Shown: positions 6,965 through 55,157 of the stretch, in pieces | Position numbering within the stretch: position 1 is the stretch's first letter | Layout: each line of letters starts with the position of its first letter | Source: a virus | Strand: one strand, 5' to 3' | IMG/VR virus record: IMGVR_UViG_3300009184_000001 | Coordinates: 30,441 to 94,440 of that record | DNA: 64,000 nt | Program-made: the position numbers and the translations under genes | Notes under the pieces: generated by a model | Database searches by the model: none | Seen by the model: only the letters and a program-made list of their open reading frames with translations | What the model was told of the DNA's origin: nothing

Positions 6965-7044
6965 GATATTATTCTCCTTGTTATTTGTTTATTTGTTTGT
7001 GTTGGGGGGCCCCGAAAGGCCCCCCTCGACGAAGGGTTTGGCTA

Positions 7045-8202
7045 TTAGTTGGTGTAAACCTTGTTGATAGCCTGGTCTGTGATGATACCTAGACCCCAGA
7101 TGGCGTACCATGCTAGTGCGTGCTCACGACCAAAGTCTAGAACACCACCATCACGAAGCTCAACTGGAAGAGCGATTGCGTGACCAAATGCGTTGTCACC
7201 AATCATGATTGACTCGTATACATCCTTTGCAGGAGTAGTACCAGTCGAACCACCAGCAGGGTTAGGTGAAGCTGACCCAGTAGGGTTACCACCTGAACCA
7301 GGAGCAGTGTTAGCCTTAACAGCACCATTAGCGTATTCATACTGGTTGCTTGGAGCACCAGTTACAGAGGTGTAGTCAACAGCAGTAGACTGAGCAAGTA
7401 GCTTAACCTGAGTAGTCTCGATGAAGACTACGTCGTATAGACGACCAATCTCACCTAGCATGAAGTTACCTGGAGCAGCGTACTTGGTTACTTCGATGAA
7501 CTCTGGGTTCGAGCGAAGGTCACGAGACTGCTTAGGGTGGATGAACATAACGTAAGTCTCACCAATTCTAGGAATGTTCTTAGAAGCAAGGGTAAGAGCT
7601 GAGTCCTTGATAGCACCAGTTGTCAACTTAAAACCACCAGTTAGTTCAGACAGGTTAGCTGCCAACTTACCTTCGTTGTAGTTAGCAAATCCGCTAGAAG
7701 TATCTGCGGAACCGTCAGCTTTCAATGTACGGTCATAACCAAAGGTCGCTGAAGTAGCAGCCGATAGTGTGTTGCGAGCCTGTACGTCAAGGTACTGTGC
7801 CATGTGGCGACCTAGCAAACGAGATGCAGAAGCCATGATGTCGTCGAACGAAGCGTTCAGTAGCAGTTCTGAAACTGCAACTGCGTAGCCGTGCTCTGCA
7901 ACGGTGATAGCAATCTGCTCTGCGGTTAGAGCGTTGGTTGACATACGGACACCTTCAGTTAGTGGAGTTGGGTCCACGCTGAAGTTTTTGTAACGAAGGA
8001 AGTTAACACGCAGACCTGGTGAAACACCAAGCTCTGTCTTCTTAACTGCAAACTGCTCAAAACGAAGAATAGGCATCGCCTGGAACAGAATTTCCTTCGA
8101 CCAGATGGTTTGAATAGCCTGTGAAAGCTGGCTATTTGAACCTGAATATGCGGTAGGCGCAGTAGCTAATGCCTGCGTACCTGTAACAGCAGAACCTGCC
8201 AT
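7045..8202 (-). CDS. Major capsid protein, N4-gp56-like family
   Basis: Follows portal and scaffold; PLTEGV, EHGYAV, IHPKQSRDL, GEIGRLYDVVFIET motifs; AAAGGAG RBS. Confidence 0.9.
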   Translation of the reverse strand: MAGSAVTGTQALATAPTAYSGSNSQLSQAIQTIWSKEILFQAMPILRFEQFAVKKTELGVSPGLRVNFLRYKNFSVDPTPLTEGVRMSTNALTAEQIAITVAEHGYAVAVSELLLNASFDDIMASASRLLGRHMAQYLDVQARNTLSAATSATFGYDRTLKADGSADTSSGFANYNEGKLAANLSELTGGFKLTTGAIKDSALTLASKNIPRIGETYVMFIHPKQSRDLRSNPEFIEVTKYAAPGNFMLGEIGRLYDVVFIETTQVKLLAQSTAVDYTSVTGAPSNQYEYANGAVKANTAPGSGGNPTGSASPNPAGGSTGTTPAKDVYESIMIGDNAFGHAIALPVELRDGGVLDFGREHALAWYAIWGLGIITDQAINKVYTN

Positions 8203-17159: not shown

Positions 17160-17618
17160 TTACTTAAATAGCTTTAGTGGGTCTACTAGACGCTCAAATG
17201 GAAGTAAGTGTGCTTCTACACCTGAAAAGTCTTTACCCATAGTAGCGACAGTCATATGTAGATGAGCGCCTGTTGAGGCTGAGCCTGATGGGGTGTTCTT
17301 GCCACCACCAACTAGTCCTAGAACAGTTTGTCCACCAACAACCTTGTCACCCTTTTTTAGGGTTGGCTTTTCAGCTAGGTGAGCGTAAAGAACCCAGTGC
17401 TTAGCATCTTTTGATGAGTGGACAATAATCCAACCTAGAACGTCAGTCCATTCAACAAGACCGACAGTTCCATCACAGATAGCTTTGATTGGGCTCTTTT
17501 CTTTTGGTGCCCAGTCCTGCCCGCGGTGTGGTCTACCATTGCGGTATGGAGCTAAGTTACCGAGCTCATCTCCTCTAAGTTTTTTATCAAATGGTTCATG
17601 GTATACAAGTTCAGACAT
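17160..17618 (-). CDS. M23 family peptidase (endolysin)
   Basis: HRGQD (HxxxD), YAHL, STGAHLH. Confidence 0.9.
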   Translation of the reverse strand: MSELVYHEPFDKKLRGDELGNLAPYRNGRPHRGQDWAPKEKSPIKAICDGTVGLVEWTDVLGWIIVHSSKDAKHWVLYAHLAEKPTLKKGDKVVGGQTVLGLVGGGKNTPSGSASTGAHLHMTVATMGKDFSGVEAHLLPFERLVDPLKLFK

Positions 17619-17649
17619 GTTTGTCCTTTCGGGGTTATGTATCTATTGT

Positions 17650-17823
17650 CTATGATTTTTGTTTTAGTTTCCGCTTATACGTAGAAATAAAGCCTCTTTG
17701 GTATGCTATACACTCATTTGCGGTGTACTTACGAGTACTATTCGCGGTGTGTTCACGCCAACTTATTAGTGCCAATTCTACCAACTCTTTATGTTTTGGC
17801 ATATTTGGGTTACGTTTAAACAC
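17650..17823 (-). CDS. Small basic hypothetical protein, 57 aa
   Basis: Manual translation MFKRNPNMPKHKELVE...; GTG start overlaps the holin stop. Confidence 0.4.
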   Translation of the reverse strand: MFKRNPNMPKHKELVELALISWREHTANSTRKYTANECIAYQRGFISTYKRKLKQKS

Positions 17824-18077
17824 TAGTCCTCTTTTTTAACATTTTTTAGCTGAACAGACTGCTGGAAAGCAGCGTTGATTTCAGCGTTAGATAATTTACC
17901 ATCTTCTAGGAAAGCAATAGACAAGCGTTCAATAACCTTGGCTACAGCAAGAATACCGCCAACAAGAGCGGCAGTAGCAGGAGCAACGCCCCCAAGGGAA
18001 CCAGCACCGATAACACCAAGAGCGGACGCAACAAATGTTGCCAAAATTCTGAGAAGAACATTTCCAGTAAGTTTCAT
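17823..18077 (-). CDS. Putative holin
   Basis: Two hydrophobic segments, DGKL...EIN motif, next to the endolysin. Confidence 0.6.
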   Translation of the reverse strand: MKLTGNVLLRILATFVASALGVIGAGSLGGVAPATAALVGGILAVAKVIERLSIAFLEDGKLSNAEINAAFQQSVQLKNVKKED

Positions 18078-18170
18078 TTAGTACCTCTAACTAATATAAA
18101 GATGTTACAGATTGTAAGTGTATTAGTAAAGGAATTGTATTTTCTATATTAAGAATACAAAAAAAGTTTG

Positions 18171-18512
18171 TTAATTACTTGGCATACCATTCAAACCAGA
18201 CGGATTTCCAGTTTCTACGTCACTAACACCAGCATCTCTAGCTAATCCTTGAGCTCCCTGCTGTACTGCACTTAGATTAGAGCCAGGCAACAATGTAGAA
18301 GGGTCATAGTTAGTTTGCCCCGACACCATGTAAGGCCACTGATTAAAAGCATAGTTACTTGGAGTTTGTTCTCCACGAGTTTGCTGTTGAAGTTCATACG
18401 GCTGTGTGCCACTAGTCATTTTAAGATTATCATCAAGATACTGACCAATGTCTGTTGCTTGGCCAGCATACATTCCTTTAGTTCTTTTAGAAAGTTTTGA
18501 TTGAGATGGCAT
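18171..18512 (-). CDS. Hypothetical protein
   Basis: 113-aa ORF coupled to the upstream gene. Confidence 0.6.
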   Translation of the reverse strand: MPSQSKLSKRTKGMYAGQATDIGQYLDDNLKMTSGTQPYELQQQTRGEQTPSNYAFNQWPYMVSGQTNYDPSTLLPGSNLSAVQQGAQGLARDAGVSDVETGNPSGLNGMPSN

Positions 18513-18721
18513 TATTGCCTTCCAGTATATTGGGCTTCTGTTGCTCCAGTGGATTTACCTGGAGCCATTCCCTCAAACTTTTTACCTTGACCACTGTCTC
18601 CATCATATTTGGTGTCATCCTTCATTGCTACACCATCATCCCCCATTGAGCCGTTTTTAGTACTGGTAAATGGTTTGTCATCAAAGTCTTTACTTTGTAC
18701 ACTTCTGCAACCAGAACACAT
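18512..18721 (-). CDS. Hypothetical protein
   Basis: 69-aa ORF. Confidence 0.55.
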   Translation of the reverse strand: MCSGCRSVQSKDFDDKPFTSTKNGSMGDDGVAMKDDTKYDGDSGQGKKFEGMAPGKSTGATEAQYTGRQ

Positions 18722-18765
18722 GCCTAATTCCCTTACTATTCAATATAAACAGTATGACAGAAACA

Positions 18766-18797
18766 GAAAGCCCCGCCAGTCTAAACCAGCGGGGCTA
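18766..18797 (-). terminator. Intrinsic terminator after NlpC/P60
   Basis: AGCCCCGC...GCGGGGCT hairpin followed by TTTCTGTTT on the minus strand. Confidence 0.65.
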
Positions 18798-18801
18798 CTG
18801 C

Positions 18802-19341
18802 TTATAGAGTTTTGATTACTCTCACAAACCTTATCTGACTCTTTTTATAGTCTGATAAAGGTTGAACTATCGTAGACTGTGTTCCACGATGTGCATTAAT
18901 CATTTTTCCATTTCCGATGTAAATGGCGGCATGATAGAAGTTAGTGCTGCCATTGTAAGCAAACACTACAATGTCTCCAACTTTAGGGTTAGAAACTCTA
19001 GCTCCAATATGTGCTTGGGCATCTGCCGAGTGTGGTAATACTATACCAAATTGTTTATAAGTCCAGCGTACTAGACCTGAACAGTCCCATCCACGGGGAC
19101 TGGCACCTGAGAATACATAGGATGTACGTCCTACGCGAGTCTTCAGATACTTTACTACATGAGCCATTTGAACAGAATTACGTTTAATCTTTTGTATTTG
19201 GATTAAACCCGTTTTTAATGACTGCTCTTTTACTTGGTGTTGCTGTACTGCCTTTGTGTTTTCAATCTGAGCTATTGCCGCAGAAGCGGAGCAACCAGCG
19301 AGAGTTAAAAGAACGCTGGCTATTATTACGTACTTTTTCAT
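18802..19341 (-). CDS. NlpC/P60 peptidoglycan endopeptidase with lipoprotein signal
   Basis: LAGC lipobox; Y.FSG....GWDCSG; HAAIYIGNG..INA. Confidence 0.9.
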   Translation of the reverse strand: MKKYVIIASVLLTLAGCSASAAIAQIENTKAVQQHQVKEQSLKTGLIQIQKIKRNSVQMAHVVKYLKTRVGRTSYVFSGASPRGWDCSGLVRWTYKQFGIVLPHSADAQAHIGARVSNPKVGDIVVFAYNGSTNFYHAAIYIGNGKMINAHRGTQSTIVQPLSDYKKSQIRFVRVIKTL

Positions 19342-19452: not shown

Positions 19453-19788
19453 TTAACTAGTTAGGTAGTCTAAAAGCTCGGGGTTGTCTTTTAGTACCAT
19501 TAAAAGGGTTTCTTCGTACATTCCAATGAAGTAATGCTCTGTTTCTTCAAAGGTTAGCTTAGGATTCATTTTACTTCCTGTAAAAAAAGTAAATCTAATA
19601 GCATGTAGAATCTCGTGCATTAGCACTTGCTTCTTACGGGTTGTGGCTGCATCTATATCAATAATAATCATGTTACGACGTTCTAGTGTATACCCGTAGT
19701 TATCCTCATACAACATGCCATCTTCTTTAGAACTGTGTTCTACTATGTCCCATATCTGAGTACCAATAAGTAACGTTTCTGGAATCAC
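19453..19788 (-). CDS. Small HExxH metallopeptidase-like protein
   Basis: VLMHEILHAI followed by a downstream E. Confidence 0.7.
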   Translation of the reverse strand: MIPETLLIGTQIWDIVEHSSKEDGMLYEDNYGYTLERRNMIIIDIDAATTRKKQVLMHEILHAIRFTFFTGSKMNPKLTFEETEHYFIGMYEETLLMVLKDNPELLDYLTS

Positions 19789-19958
19789 CTGTCAGACCCC
19801 CATCCTGAGCCTTTAAAGGTGAGTGACGGTGCTGAGAAGACACGAGTCATCTCTTTCTTGCACTCTAAACATTCTGGAACTATACGTTGCTCTGATATGG
19901 TTACAACGTGACTAACAGTAGTCTCACAAGTTTCACATTTGTACTGATAAGTAGGCAT
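19785..19958 (-). CDS. FmdB-family zinc-ribbon protein, 57 aa
   Basis: Manual translation MPTYQYKCETC...CLEC...MTRVFSAP...FKGSGW. Confidence 0.85.
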   Translation of the reverse strand: MPTYQYKCETCETTVSHVVTISEQRIVPECLECKKEMTRVFSAPSLTFKGSGWGSDR

Positions 19959-19960
19959 TG

Positions 19961-20062
19961 TTAAGCCTTAACTAATTTACGTTTGATTGGGTCAAATACT
20001 TTTGGAGACTTCTTAAAAGCCTTCCCACTATTTCTTTTATCGTTACGGGCACCTTTTGCCAT
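19961..20062 (-). CDS. 33-aa basic peptide MAKGARNDKRNSGKAFKKSPKVFDPIKRKLVKA
   Basis: AGGAG RBS at normal spacing; fills the gap between tRNA-Trp and the FmdB gene. Confidence 0.7.
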   Translation of the reverse strand: MAKGARNDKRNSGKAFKKSPKVFDPIKRKLVKA

Positions 20063-20088
20063 TTTATTCTCCTATCTGTTATTGTTCG

Positions 20089-20159
20089 CTGATTCTGTAG
20101 GAGTCGAACCTACGCTAACGGTGTTGGAGACCGCTGTGCTACCGTAACACTTAGAACCA
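20089..20159 (-). tRNA. tRNA-Trp (CCA), 3' CCA not encoded
   Basis: Acceptor TGGTTCT/AGAATCA, anticodon arm GCGGT-CT CCA AC-ACCGT, T arm GTAGG-TTCGACT-CCTAC. Confidence 0.92.
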
Positions 20160-20164
20160 TTAGT

Positions 20165-20226
20165 GCAACTACTCCCAAGGACGAAACAATGGGCGGAGTT
20201 ATCCACGGCTAGTTGCCATACCGTGG
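20165..20226 (-). ncRNA. Putative pseudoknotted RNA between the mini-tmRNA and tRNA-Trp
   Basis: CCACGG/CCGTGG interleaved with GCAACTA/TAGTTGC, plus an ACTCC/GGAGT hairpin. Confidence 0.5.
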
Positions 20227-20229
20227 CAG

Positions 20230-20309
20230 TGGACCAGCACAGAATTGAACTGTGGTCTTACAGAGTCCTACTGGAGGCTTTGTTCTGCAATCGACACCAT
20301 TTCTAGCCC
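20230..20309 (-). ncRNA. Minimal tmRNA-like RNA (tRNA-like domain only, no tag reading frame)
   Basis: GGGCTAG/CTGGTCC acceptor with G3-U70 and discriminator A; stemless D-loop AAATGGTGTCGA; helix TTGCAGA/TCTGTAA; GAC linker; T arm CACAG-TTCAATT-CTGTG. Confidence 0.8.
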
Positions 20310-20383
20310 TTGTGCCAGGATGATTGCCACTAGGCTCACGCGAGAACATACGGTGCTCCTGGCGAACACACGCTCTTGTAATT

Positions 20384-20411
20384 AGTATACACCAAAATTA
20401 CTTGATGTCAA
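20384..20411 (-). promoter_or_regulatory. Sigma70/SigA-type promoter for the RNA cassette
   Basis: TTGACA-16 nt-TATACT. Confidence 0.7.
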
Positions 20412-20931
20412 TTACCTTAGGTTTCTTTTCTTCAGGAAGCTCTTTCTTAAAAGTAATTACTAGTAGTCCATTATCTAGTTCAGCACTTGTTACTACCCAG
20501 TACTCAGCAATAGCAAGAGATAGAGTAAAGTCTCTAGTAGCTATACCTTGATATAGTACTTCTCCTTTAGCCTTACTCTCCTTGTTACCTTGAATAGTAA
20601 TAGTAGAGTCTTTAACAGTAACAGTAATTTCTTTTTTACTAAAACCAGCAACAGCTACATTGAGTAGGTTAGTTTCATCATCCAATTGAACAATGTCGTA
20701 TGGGGGATAGGTTGGTTTATTTGAGGTAATTTCCTTGAGTTGGTCAAGGATAGGTGACCAGCCAATAGATAGACGGTCTAGACGAGGGAATAGGTCAGCA
20801 ATGGTAATAACCTTAGGCTTCTCTGATTGCCACTTCTTATAACTATCTTCGTGGATATTTGGACCCCAGGGAGTATAAGGTGGTTTTTTGTTTTTATCCC
20901 ATGGGTCATTTGAATATGGTTGTATATGCAT
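20398..20931 (-). CDS. Small heat-shock protein (Hsp20/IbpA family)
   Basis: YPPYDI, AVAGF, YQGIATRDF, A.LDNGLL.I, PKVIDI (IxI motif). Confidence 0.92.
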   Translation of the reverse strand: MHIQPYSNDPWDKNKKPPYTPWGPNIHEDSYKKWQSEKPKVITIADLFPRLDRLSIGWSPILDQLKEITSNKPTYPPYDIVQLDDETNLLNVAVAGFSKKEITVTVKDSTITIQGNKESKAKGEVLYQGIATRDFTLSLAIAEYWVVTSAELDNGLLVITFKKELPEEKKPKVIDIK

Positions 20932-28209: not shown

Positions 28210-29544
28210 ATGTACGCAGCTATGATGAAGTGCCAAACTTCTACAGGAGATGTACGCACAGTCGCAGTAGTTCCTACTACTGATGATGTACGTATCTTCT
28301 CACGATTAGGAGAGGGGCGTGGTCGTGCTGGTGCTTGGCTAGAAGGAGATGTACTCATTGAACAAAATGAGTTACTTATTGGAAGCCCAGTATCACTCAA
28401 GACTACTCCGTCAGAAGACAGAGTAATCAACTCTACTATCACACCGTCAATGTTCTTGGTGAAGTTAGGCAAGAAATTGCCTGAAAGCAGCACACCTAGT
28501 TCAACGTCAGCACTAGAAGAGTTTCAATCTCTACTAGAGCAGGCATTGAATGACCCAAGTTCATTGTCTGTATATGAGCAAGCAATTGTTCATACACAAG
28601 CCACACCACAGCCAGTGGTGCAACAGCAGGTAGCAAGCCCGTTGCCTGTTCAACCCGAGATGTCTAAGGAGACACCTATGGAATACTCACAACCCCTACC
28701 AGCATCAAGCAACAGCCACAGTGTATTGCTTGTGCCAGAAATCAAGCCACACTTCACTAGGACATTCGATGAACTAGACGAAGTAACTATCCTTGATTCA
28801 GCACGAGCAAGAAAAAAGACTGTGCTTATCACAGGTCCCGCTGGTACAGGCAAGACTAGTTGTGCTTACAACTATGCCGCAGTCAATCATCTACCATTCG
28901 TAGTTATTGAAGGCACACGACAGATTGACGAGACCAAGGTTCATGGTCGCTTCATTCCTACTGGTGTTGGTAACAGCACTGCTTGGAAGTACAGTCAGTT
29001 CGTTACTGCTATCCAGCAACCGTCAGTAATCCTTATCAACGAGTTGAGTCGTATGCCTGCCAAAGCAGCCGACTTGTTCCTTCGTGTACTCAATGAGCGA
29101 GAACTAATCATTGACCAACTCAATGAGGTTATCAAGGTGCACCCTGAGTGTCTGTTCATTGTAGACCAGAACACAGGTACTGGCTATGCTGTTACAGCAC
29201 AAGACAAGGCATTGCTTGACAGAATGCAACCTAAGATGGAGTTTGATTACGACATCAAGCTTGAGTCTAAGTTCATCAAGTCCGAGTCATTGCTGTTGTT
29301 TGCACAGTCTATTCGTGAAGCAGCGACTATGACTGACCAGTTCACAACACCTATGTCGCCTCGTATCCTGCTTGACTTCGTAGACAATGCTAAGCACCTC
29401 AACTTAGCATTCGCTGTGCGTTCATTGCTCAACAACTTCCCTAAGGATGATGGTGAGCGTGAAGCAGTCAAGATGACTCTAGACTCCAACATTGACGCTA
29501 TTGCGTCAGAGTTGGGTGTAGAACTAGGCAGTTACTCAGCCTAG
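28210..29544 (+). CDS. MoxR/CbbQ/CobS-like AAA+ ATPase
   Basis: GPAGTGKT Walker A, ILINELSR Walker B variant, D.ALLDR arginine finger, SPR. Confidence 0.88.
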   Translation: MYAAMMKCQTSTGDVRTVAVVPTTDDVRIFSRLGEGRGRAGAWLEGDVLIEQNELLIGSPVSLKTTPSEDRVINSTITPSMFLVKLGKKLPESSTPSSTSALEEFQSLLEQALNDPSSLSVYEQAIVHTQATPQPVVQQQVASPLPVQPEMSKETPMEYSQPLPASSNSHSVLLVPEIKPHFTRTFDELDEVTILDSARARKKTVLITGPAGTGKTSCAYNYAAVNHLPFVVIEGTRQIDETKVHGRFIPTGVGNSTAWKYSQFVTAIQQPSVILINELSRMPAKAADLFLRVLNERELIIDQLNEVIKVHPECLFIVDQNTGTGYAVTAQDKALLDRMQPKMEFDYDIKLESKFIKSESLLLFAQSIREAATMTDQFTTPMSPRILLDFVDNAKHLNLAFAVRSLLNNFPKDDGEREAVKMTLDSNIDAIASELGVELGSYSA

Positions 29545-37253: not shown

Positions 37254-37471
37254 TGGATATGGAACAAGCTGGATGCAGGGCGGTTGACCCCGACTTATTC
37301 TTTCCTGAGGGCAAGAACAAAAGAGAGCAAGAGTATAACGCTAAACAAATATGTGCTTCATGCCCTATAATTACAGACTGTTTACAGTTTGCAATAGATA
37401 ATAAACAGGTAGGTATATGGGGTGGAACTACGGATGATGAACGTAGACACCTTAATGTAATTATTAAGTAA
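37253..37471 (+). CDS. whiB: WhiB-family transcription factor
   Basis: C...DPDLFFP...AK.IC..CP....CL.FA......GIWGG....ER. Confidence 0.92.
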   Translation: MDMEQAGCRAVDPDLFFPEGKNKREQEYNAKQICASCPIITDCLQFAIDNKQVGIWGGTTDDERRHLNVIIK

Positions 37472-54815: not shown

Positions 54816-55157
54816 TTACTTTTCCTTTTTATTTAATTGAAAGACATATTCTTTCAAGGTCATACTATCTTTATACTGCCTTTGCCATTTACGCACAAGT
54901 GCATTTCTTTCACGGTGACTTAACCCGCCCCATATTCCATGTTGCTCATCTGATTCTATTGCAGACCACAGACATTCTTTACGAACTGGGCAAGGTGGAA
55001 CTTCCCCGTCTACTCCAAAACAATATCTTTTTGCTGCATCTGCTGTTGGTTTATAAAGAGCTTTATCTCTCGGTGGAAAAAATATATCAGGGTTTGGTAT
55101 ATCTTTGCAAGCAGAATCATTAATCCACTCTAAATCATTTAGATTAAACGTTTGCAT
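54816..55157 (-). CDS. whiB: WhiB-family transcription factor
   Basis: W...AC...PDIFFP...AK.YC...CPV..ECL..A......GIWGGLS.RER. Confidence 0.92.
   Translation of the reverse strand: MQTFNLNDLEWINDSACKDIPNPDIFFPPRDKALYKPTADAAKRYCFGVDGEVPPCPVRKECLWSAIESDEQHGIWGGLSHRERNALVRKWQRQYKDSMTLKEYVFQLNKKEK

What the first reader, a model, noticed from the sequence alone, without database searches (positions are those of the whole stretch)
19785..20411. Self-contained translation-interference cassette with its own promoter
Seen: TTGACA-16-TATACT (20411-20384) fires into a tightly packed series: 50-nt mini-cloverleaf (20363-20314), mini-tmRNA (20309-20230), pseudoknot (20226-20165), tRNA-Trp (20159-20089), 33-aa basic peptide, FmdB zinc ribbon, HExxH protein. 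Spacers between the RNA units are only 3-5 nt. Established: RNase P and 3' processing of tRNA-like units releases neighbouring RNAs. Inference: one precursor is cut into up to four small RNAs aimed at the ribosome and its rescue machinery, placed just downstream of a protein quality-control gene (Hsp20).
Basis: partly seen in the sequence, partly recalled or inferred. Interest (0 to 1): 0.75.

Follow-up and report, generated by a model that had tools for sequence, protein, structure and literature searches.

The report
Phage headless tmRNA in tRNA array
Behind a conserved promoter at the end of its hsp20 gene, this freshwater actinobacterial phage carries a small array of tRNA-type genes whose centrepiece is an 80-base "headless" tmRNA, a little-known kind of phage RNA (one published case, phage DS6A) that probably interferes with the host's ribosome-rescue system.

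Summary
The promoter (11 of 12 consensus bases) is kept in 22 of 34 related hsp20 loci, and tRNA-Trp is real.

The "mini-tmRNA" (20309-20230, minus strand) is a real RNA gene.
- I collected 31 distinct copies from uncultured phages.
- 95.6% of base-pair cells are paired and 14 of 21 pairs show compensatory changes.
- G3:U70 is present in 29 of 31 copies and A73 in all.
- A covariance model built from them finds one full-length hit in mycobacteriophage DS6A (E = 5.6e-14), the phage with the published "TLD-only tmRNA".
- The same model finds unannotated copies inside the tRNA arrays of three cultured Streptomyces phages.

The pseudoknot recurs at three other places, next to tmRNA-type genes or tRNA-Trp, with three compensatory pairs. 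The 50-nt "mini-cloverleaf" has no relative and only a marginal fold.

The block is not a self-contained cassette. Relatives keep the promoter and the protein genes (33-aa peptide, zinc ribbon, HExxH, NlpC/P60) while the RNA insert varies from 0 to about 750 nt and its modules shuffle.

The host is actinobacterial (two WhiB genes). This is a new member of a known but barely described kind. Earlier reports of this scan reached the same DS6A link on other DNA.

The parts
20398..20931 (-). Hsp20 small heat-shock protein gene; its last codons contain the -35 box of the downstream promoter
   Evidence: Pfam HSP20 3.5e-14; PHROG 432 1.1e-32; relatives
20384..20411 (-). Sigma-70-type promoter TTGACA-16-TATACT
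   Evidence: 11 of 12 consensus bases. Kept at the same position with score 10 or more in 22 of 34 distinct related hsp20 loci, including loci without any RNA gene
20314..20363 (-). Unit 1: predicted Y-shaped fold (7-bp closing stem GCCAGGA/UCCUGGC, two small hairpins, then AC). It occupies the position of the 5'-terminal GC hairpin of relatives. Status uncertain
   Evidence: MFE fold, z = -1.68; no homologue in fetched loci or by a 19-mer scan of IMG/VR; relatives carry other stable structures here
20230..20309 (-). TLD-only (CDS-less) tmRNA gene of the DS6A type: acceptor stem with G3:U70, A73, D-type loop AAAUGGUGUCGAUU, P2-like hairpin closed by a pentaloop, AAGAC linker, T arm
   Evidence: Alignment A1 of 31 sequences; covariation; model R1 scores the window copy at 98.3 bits and DS6A at 56.6 bits; the Rfam tRNA and tmRNA models do not reach threshold
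20160..20229 (-). Unit 3: conserved pseudoknotted element. P1 is CCACGG/CCGUGG, the inner hairpin is CCNN/NNGG, and the loop segment GCAACUA pairs with the downstream UAGUUGC, which is followed by AC. It fills the space between the TLD and tRNA-Trp
   Evidence: Homologues at L113, L144 and L148; A2 is 100% paired with 3 compensatory pairs and the knot helix is invariant; R2 finds only these four
20089..20159 (-). tRNA-Trp(CCA), the only tRNA of the 94-kb genome; CCA is not encoded
   Evidence: ARAGORN; Rfam tRNA 53.7 bits
19961..20062 (-). 33-aa basic ORF with a strong AGGAG ribosome-binding site; conserved in relatives; function unknown
   Evidence: tblastn 68-81% identity in relatives; no Pfam, PHROG or Atlas lead
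19785..19958 (-). FmdB-like zinc-ribbon protein
   Evidence: Pfam Zn_ribbon_8 9.7e-10; PHROG 1076
19453..19788 (-). 111-aa HExxH protein, a putative small metallopeptidase; overlaps the zinc-ribbon stop codon
   Evidence: Weak Peptidase_M78/DUF6782 matches below cut-off; PHROG 1233 9e-10; 75-87% identity in about 40 IMG/VR loci
18802..19341 (-). NlpC/P60 lipoprotein-type peptidase, last gene of the conserved block
   Evidence: Pfam NLPC_P60 4e-23 and LPAM_1; synteny
18769..18796 (-). Intrinsic-terminator-like hairpin (12 pairs, 8 GC) followed by a T-rich tail; likely end of the transcription unit

Best explanation
The promoter overlapping the end of hsp20 starts a transcript for a conserved protein operon: 33-aa peptide, zinc ribbon, HExxH protein, NlpC/P60. 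In this phage lineage the 5' leader of that transcript is a hot spot where tRNA-type genes are inserted and exchanged. Here it holds four modules: a structured 5' element, a TLD-only tmRNA, a pseudoknotted spacer RNA and tRNA-Trp.

Inferred steps: host RNase P and 3' processing enzymes cut the precursor at the tRNA-like units. The host CCA-adding enzyme then completes the 3' ends, which are encoded only as far as N73-C.

The 80-nt RNA is the tRNA-like domain of tmRNA without the message part. It keeps the alanine identity set (G3:U70, A73) and the D-loop/T-loop elbow. The most likely action is that it binds host SmpB, is charged by AlaRS, and competes with the host's own tmRNA. That would blunt trans-translation, the tagging and rescue of stalled ribosomes, during infection. 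This behaviour was reported for the DS6A-type molecule expressed in E. coli.

tRNA-Trp simply supplies decoding capacity. The pseudoknot is a conserved companion of unknown role. The protein genes are not part of the RNA function.
For: Shown here:
- Promoter match and its conservation.
- Conserved gene order with an insert of 0 to about 750 nt.
- Family of 31 distinct TLD units with strong covariation, G3:U70 in 29 of 31 and A73 in 31 of 31.
- Model R1 hits nothing else in the window, not even tRNA-Trp. It hits DS6A once, full length, at 56.6 bits and E = 5.6e-14, in the gp33-gp34 gap.
- The only sense-strand Rfam hints are tmRNA families, not tRNA.
- In relatives the unit abuts tRNAs at 0-4 nt on the same strand.
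- Four of five other complete ~90-kb relatives have exactly one copy.
- Related phages carry full-length tmRNAs followed by the same pseudoknot.
- The phage has no SmpB of its own, so any SmpB partner must be the host's.

From the literature: DS6A is listed as 'TLD only', and such a molecule strongly inhibits tmRNA, perhaps by titrating SmpB (PMC4131195). [quoted passage not shown]
Against: - There is no expression, processing, charging or SmpB-binding data for this phage or its relatives.
- PMC4131195 reports inhibition whether or not the molecule is chargeable. Pure SmpB titration therefore does not explain why G3:U70 and A73 are so strictly kept. That points to a role for charging.
- Two family members have A3:U70.
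- One complete relative lacks the gene, so it is accessory.
- I could not read the primary DS6A paper (Mao et al. 2009). The identity of my DS6A hit with the published gene rests on its being the only hit in that genome, and on earlier scan notes giving the same coordinates.
Confidence: 0.6

Rival explanations
1. Tag-less ribosome rescue rather than inhibition. The charged Ala-TLD, with host SmpB and EF-Tu, enters stalled ribosomes and accepts the nascent chain. Because it has no message, the ribosome is freed by drop-off or hydrolysis and the protein is not marked for degradation. This would raise ribosome supply while host mRNAs are being destroyed.
For: Strict conservation of the alanine identity set: G3:U70 in 29 of 31 and A73 in 31 of 31. 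This is unnecessary for a pure SmpB sponge according to PMC4131195. CDS-less tmRNAs persist in mitochondria and some plastids together with SmpB, and are thought still to help with incomplete mRNAs (PMC11915505).
Against: No mechanism is known for releasing a peptidyl-TLD without a stop codon. The only experiment reported for this kind of molecule shows inhibition. Nothing was tested here.
Confidence: 0.2
2. Processing punctuation only. The tRNA-like units, TLD included, serve as RNase P/Z landing pads. They trim the 5' leader, free the downstream mRNA and perhaps define the hsp20 3' end. The released RNAs have no function of their own.
For: The array lies in the 5' leader of a conserved operon. 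Relatives have a simple hairpin at the same place. Units are packed with 0-5-nt spacers. All four units end in a 7-bp stem followed by A/G-C.
Against: A cleavage signal needs neither G3:U70 nor the invariant 14-nt D-type loop and inner hairpin. These are shared from freshwater phages to Streptomyces phages and DS6A. The TLD also occurs far from this operon and inside pure tRNA arrays.
Confidence: 0.1
3. One dedicated, self-contained operon yields four small RNAs that together attack the ribosome and its rescue machinery, functionally coupled to Hsp20 and the downstream small proteins.
For: Tight packing behind one promoter. The pseudoknot recurs next to tmRNA-type genes. hsp20 lies 54-108 nt upstream of the TLD in 16 of 32 loci.
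Against: Modules occur separately and in other orders. The promoter and the protein genes persist without any RNA module. Unit 1 has no relative. tRNA-Trp is a standard tRNA. The hsp20 linkage is confined to one phage clade and is not independent across loci.
Confidence: 0.07
4. Decayed remnants. The non-tRNA units are relics of tRNA or tmRNA genes in a fast-turnover array and are not functional.
For: High turnover of the insert among close relatives. Unit 1 is unique. The MFE of the whole 296-nt stretch is not unusual, z = -0.75.
Against: For the TLD: compensatory changes in all four helices and invariant loops across very distant phages. For the pseudoknot: three compensatory pairs and no broken pair.
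Confidence: 0.03

Closest known systems
'TLD only' tmRNA of mycobacteriophage DS6A (tmRNA Website tmID 11587; Mao et al. 2009, cited in PMC4131195 and PMC11915505)
   Same: Same length class (80 nt) and same architecture. Acceptor stem with G3:U70 and A73, a GG...UCGA D-type loop, a P2-like helix closed by a short hairpin with the AAA(G/A)CCGCA..CGG motif, a GAC linker, a T arm, and no coding part. My model of the window's family aligns to DS6A 28478-28557 end to end (56.6 bits). Both are from phages of Actinobacteria.
   Different: The sequences are too diverged for BLAST. GC content is 49% against 70%. Here the gene sits in a tRNA-type array behind hsp20 and is followed by a pseudoknot. In DS6A it stands alone between gp33 and a DNA polymerase III gene. 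Function has been tested only for the DS6A-type molecule, in E. coli.
Bacterial and phage full-length tmRNA (Rfam RF00023), for example the phage tmRNAs in L144 and L148
   Same: The tRNA-like domain. The acceptor stem GGGGAUG/CAUCUCC of some family members is identical to that of the L144 and L148 phage tmRNAs. The D-type loop and T arm also match, and the same 3' pseudoknot follows.
   Different: No resume codon, tag reading frame, stop codon or pseudoknots PK1-4. Not called by ARAGORN or by RF00023.
CDS-less tmRNAs of jakobid and oomycete mitochondria and Mallomonadaceae plastids (PMC11915505)
   Same: A tmRNA reduced to little more than the tRNA-like domain.
   Different: Those are organellar genes retained with a nucleus-encoded SmpB and are thought to help the organelle. 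Here the gene is in a virus and is probably used against, or in place of, the host's system. No sequence comparison was made here.
Phage tRNA gene clusters
   Same: Same-strand arrays with very short spacers, rapid gain and loss between relatives, and no encoded CCA.
   Different: Half of the units in this array are not decoding tRNAs.

Membership tests
tmRNA (full, RF00023) | 7-bp acceptor stem with G3:U70 and discriminator A73 (alanine identity) | tested here: met
   Window: GGGCUAG/CUGGUCC followed by A. Family: G:U in 29 of 31 and A73 in 31 of 31
tmRNA (full, RF00023) | Stemless D-type loop (GG ... UCGA), GAC linker and T arm with a GUUCRAUUC loop | tested here: met
   The loop AAAUGGUGUCGAUU is invariant but for one position, AAGAC is invariant, and the 5-bp T stem covaries. 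That these features define the TLD is from my own knowledge and PMC4131195
tmRNA (full, RF00023) | mRNA-like domain: resume codon, tag reading frame, stop codon | tested here: not met
   The P2-like helix is closed by a 5-nt loop and the whole gene is 80 nt. ARAGORN calls no tmRNA
tmRNA (full, RF00023) | Reaches the Rfam gathering score | tested here: not met
   No RF00023 match. Only 10.5-10.8-bit partial matches to cyano_tmRNA and tmRNA_permuted
TLD-only / CDS-less tmRNA (DS6A type) | Full-length structural and sequence match to the DS6A gene | tested here: met
   R1 gives a single hit in DS6A, model positions 1-80 of 80, 56.6 bits, E = 5.6e-14. R1 does not hit ordinary tRNAs in the window
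TLD-only / CDS-less tmRNA (DS6A type) | Binds SmpB and inhibits host tmRNA | not testable with these tools
   Literature only, for the DS6A-type molecule in E. coli
TLD-only / CDS-less tmRNA (DS6A type) | Alanylation by AlaRS | not testable with these tools
   Identity elements are present in sequence. No assay
Canonical tRNA (for the 80-nt unit) | Anticodon stem with a 7-nt loop (U33, purine 37), a D stem, and an Rfam or ARAGORN call | tested here: not met
   The loop is a 5-nt loop closed by a covarying pair, and there is no D stem. Not called
tRNA-Trp (unit 4) | Cloverleaf with anticodon CCA | tested here: met
   ARAGORN, and Rfam at 53.7 bits against a cut-off of 29
Sigma-70-type promoter | -35 and -10 hexamers at 16-18-nt spacing, conserved in relatives | tested here: met
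   11 of 12 bases; 22 of 34 related loci score 10 or more at the same place. The transcription start is not testable here
H-type pseudoknot (unit 3) | Two helices in which the loop of the first pairs downstream, supported by covariation | tested here: inconclusive
   P1 and the inner hairpin covary (3 pairs). The knot-forming helix GCAACUA/UAGUUGC is invariant in all 4 copies
tRNA-like fold (unit 1) | Conserved acceptor-type stem plus a T-loop or D-loop motif, with homologues | tested here: not met
   No T-loop motif, no homologue, z = -1.68

The most novel reading that the evidence does not exclude
The TLD-only RNA is not a mere SmpB sponge. It would be a charged, phage-run ribosome-rescue or decoy factor, and the pseudoknot that follows tmRNA-type genes (TLD-only or full-length) would be a dedicated partner RNA or maturation switch for them. 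Together with phage Hsp20, actinophages would then carry a coordinated, modular RNA toolkit for taking over host translational quality control.
Probability: 0.15. Interest if true: 0.75.

Novelty: new member of a known kind. Interest (0 to 1): 0.5.

Why it matters
Headless tmRNAs in phages are known in print from a single mycobacteriophage. This window belongs to a family of at least 31 distinct sequences in 39 IMG/VR contigs. The family reaches unannotated genes in cultured Streptomyces phages (LuckySocke, BRock, Lululemon), which infect laboratory strains.

That makes an open question directly testable: why would a virus disable or replace bacterial trans-translation, and does charging with alanine matter? 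The family also explains unannotated gaps inside phage tRNA arrays and is missing from Rfam.

The strict retention of G3:U70 argues that the published "SmpB titration" explanation is incomplete.

Tried and rejected
- Rfam at gathering and at E up to 10 gave only tRNA-Trp and chance or weak hits. RF00023 found nothing in the genome.
- My first gapped pattern had one N too many and found nothing. It was corrected and re-run.
- The corrected pattern found no copy in one genome per prokaryote species. Prophage or host copies are not shown, but the pattern is strict.
- blastn of the unit against cultured phages gave chance matches only. The covariance model was needed.
- R1 does not match the full-length tmRNA of L144. 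This is expected, because the model cannot bridge the message part.
- Sequencing runs: no RNA holder is listed. Read laying was not used, because the holders are DNA contigs.
- Unit 1: there is no homologue in fetched loci or by a 19-mer scan. Its likeness to the Y-shaped element of L060, L065 and L107 is architectural only, so I do not claim homology.
- The fold energy of the whole 296 nt is not unusual, z = -0.75. This says little for a chain of modules.
- Coding readings: the short ORFs over the RNA units and a 6-codon ORF inside the pseudoknot are rejected. The substitutions between copies are compensatory for pairing and not synonymous.
- attP or ssrA-fragment reading: rejected, because both halves of the acceptor stem are present and covary.
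- The 33-aa peptide has no family in Pfam, PHROGs or the ESM Atlas.
- Mao et al. 2009 is not held.

Full report
**What is there**

The window is part of a complete 94,440-bp virus record with terminal repeats. All features of the finding lie on the minus strand at the coordinates given.
- Promoter TTGACA-16-TATACT, 20411-20384.
- A 50-nt unit, 20363-20314.
- An 80-nt unit, 20309-20230.
- A 62-nt pseudoknot, 20226-20165.
- tRNA-Trp, 20159-20089.
- Spacers of 4, 3 and 5 nt between the units.
- A 33-aa basic ORF with an AGGAG ribosome-binding site, an FmdB-type zinc ribbon and an HExxH protein.

The protein labels hold. ARAGORN and Rfam confirm tRNA-Trp and call nothing else. It is the only tRNA in the genome.

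**Host**

The genome has two WhiB genes. WhiB rings only in Corynebacterium among the 14 control genomes. The closest DNA polymerase I among cultured phages is in Streptomyces phages, at 37% identity. GC content is about 42%, and the holders are freshwater metagenomes.

**Context in relatives**

About 40 IMG/VR loci share the order hsp20, 33-aa peptide, zinc ribbon, HExxH, NlpC/P60. The stretch between hsp20 and the first protein gene varies from about 70 nt to about 750 nt.
- The simplest relatives have only the promoter, a GC-rich hairpin and the ribosome-binding site.
- Others carry tRNA-Trp, tRNA-Asn or tRNA-Thr, the 80-nt unit, extra ORFs (one looks thioredoxin-like to my eye, not tested) or other structured pieces, in different combinations.
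- The promoter is kept at the same place in 22 of 34 distinct related hsp20 loci, including loci with no RNA gene.

So the promoter belongs to the protein operon, which probably ends at the terminator at 18796-18769. The RNAs are insertions in its leader. This is not a fixed cassette.

**The 80-nt unit**

Two pattern scans of IMG/VR gave 39 contigs and 31 distinct sequences of 77-80 nt, counting the window's own copy. The structure I read from the sequence has four parts:
- a 7-bp acceptor stem;
- a 14-nt unpaired D-type loop;
- a helix with an inner 3-bp hairpin and pentaloop;
- an AAGAC linker and a T arm.

This structure is paired in 95.6% of cells. Fourteen of its 21 pairs changed on both sides, 0 of 500 shuffles reach that, and slid controls collapse to 23-48% pairing. 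RNAalifold predicts the same helices without my input.

Position 3:70 is G:U in 29 of 31 copies while positions 4-7 vary freely. The discriminator is A in all copies. There is no anticodon loop.
- Rfam's tRNA model does not see the unit.
- The only sense-strand hints are tmRNA_permuted and cyano_tmRNA, at about 10 bits.
- The full tmRNA model finds nothing.

**Link to the known case**

Hudson, Lau and Williams list mycobacteriophage DS6A as carrying a "TLD only" tmRNA. They note that a similar molecule strongly inhibits tmRNA, perhaps by titrating SmpB (PMC4131195). [quoted passage not shown]

My covariance model R1 finds exactly one hit in the DS6A genome. It is at 28478-28557, between gp33 and gp34, aligned end to end at 56.6 bits and E = 5.6e-14. 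In the window R1 hits only the unit itself and not tRNA-Trp.

R1 also finds full-length, G3:U70-bearing copies in unannotated gaps of the tRNA arrays of three cultured Streptomyces phages:
- LuckySocke, 17977-18054, 45.6 bits;
- BRock, 97143-97220, 42.5 bits;
- Lululemon, 86069-86145, 30.4 bits.

These copies and DS6A share the inner motif AAA(G/A)CCGCA..CGG with the freshwater copies. The unit is therefore a member of an actinophage-wide family of CDS-less tmRNAs.

**Distribution**

- Four of five other complete ~90-kb relatives have one copy each, and one has none.
- In many contigs the unit abuts tRNAs on the same strand with 0-4-nt spacers.
- hsp20 lies 54-108 nt upstream in 16 of 32 loci, even where the downstream genes differ. 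These loci are related, so the count is not a set of independent events.
- The phage has no SmpB gene.

**The pseudoknot**

Homologues exist at only three other places in about 0.6 Mb of fetched loci and in the two collection scans.
- L113: directly after a TLD-only unit.
- L144: directly after a full-length phage tmRNA with tag ANTSAYALAA.
- L148: between a tRNA-like element downstream of a full-length tmRNA (tag AESRSAFALAA) and tRNA-Trp, with the same junction to tRNA-Trp as in the window.

All 18 proposed pairs are kept in all four copies. One pair in the first helix and two in the inner hairpin changed on both sides. The knot-forming helix never varies, so it is untested. Its 3' strand is followed by AC, like the acceptor ends of units 1 and 2. 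Its function is unknown. The L144 phage is a relative (HExxH protein 47% identical), which fits an origin of the headless form from a full-length phage tmRNA.

**Unit 1**

It folds into a 7-bp stem with two hairpins, but only marginally better than shuffles (z = -1.68). It has no relative and no T-loop motif. It sits where relatives have a 5'-terminal hairpin or another Y-shaped element. I treat it as a leader or terminator structure of uncertain standing.

**Mechanism**

- Shown: the anatomy, the conservation and the family link.
- From the literature: DS6A-type RNA inhibits tmRNA.
- Inferred: a start near 20377, RNase P/Z cleavage, CCA addition, SmpB binding and alanylation.

The strict G3:U70/A73 conservation suggests that charging matters. 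A pure sponge model does not require charging, so the tag-less rescue reading stays open.

**Earlier notes of this scan**

Notes e1-5844305 and e1-3408686 reached the same DS6A link on other genomes. I had derived it independently.

**Verdict**

The idea of a self-contained four-RNA interference cassette does not hold.

Noticed in passing
L144:6622-6964 (minus strand; tmRNA at 7018-7360 of the reverse complement) and L148:2031-2378: Related uncultured phages encode full-length tmRNAs (ARAGORN tags ANTSAYALAA and AESRSAFALAA). Their acceptor stem GGGGAUG/CAUCUCC is identical to that of some TLD-only copies. In L144 the tmRNA is followed directly by the pseudoknot.
   Followed up: partly
OR725497.1 17977-18054; KX925554.1 97143-97220 (minus); PQ184791.1 86069-86145: Cultured Streptomyces phages LuckySocke, BRock and Lululemon have unannotated TLD-only tmRNA homologues in gaps of their tRNA arrays. 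This is a tractable laboratory system.
   Followed up: partly
L113:1876-1955 and L148:2420-2502: Another recurrent tRNA-shaped module: acceptor-like GGACUG/CAGUCC followed by AC, and three small arms, one with the loop UGCAAAU. It lies next to the pseudoknot. ARAGORN does not call it.
   Followed up: no
L103:3650-3722: Just upstream of its TLD unit is a second tRNA-like element, with a GCCCC.../...GGGGC stem followed by ACC, a T arm GAUAAGUUCGAUUCUUAUC and a 13-nt loop in place of an anticodon loop.
   Followed up: no
L126:424-502 and L133:1039-1117: Two family members have A3:U70 instead of G3:U70 and a different inner hairpin. They may be uncharged variants.
   Followed up: no
L107, L111, L115 and L110, downstream of their TLD units: Further recurrent non-coding modules, for example ones containing GAGUCCACA...AACCAGCA and GGAGUCAC motifs, are shared between contigs. 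The arrays hold several unnamed small-RNA families.
   Followed up: no
window 37262-37453 (+) and 54897-55127 (-): Two WhiB-family genes (77.6 and 58.4 bits). They mark an actinobacterial host.
   Followed up: partly
window 20197-20217 (-): A 6-codon ORF (AUG GCA ACU AGC CGU GGA UAA) lies inside the pseudoknot. Changes in L113 alter two residues while keeping the pairing, so it is probably not coding.
   Followed up: yes
window 17160-19341 (-): Downstream of the block lie an NlpC/P60 lipoprotein, a holin-like membrane protein and an M23 peptidase. This is possibly the lysis region, so the promoter may be a late or lysis-operon promoter.
   Followed up: no
My T-arm and acceptor scan found no further canonical T-arm unit in the window. 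I did not examine that region otherwise.
   Followed up: no
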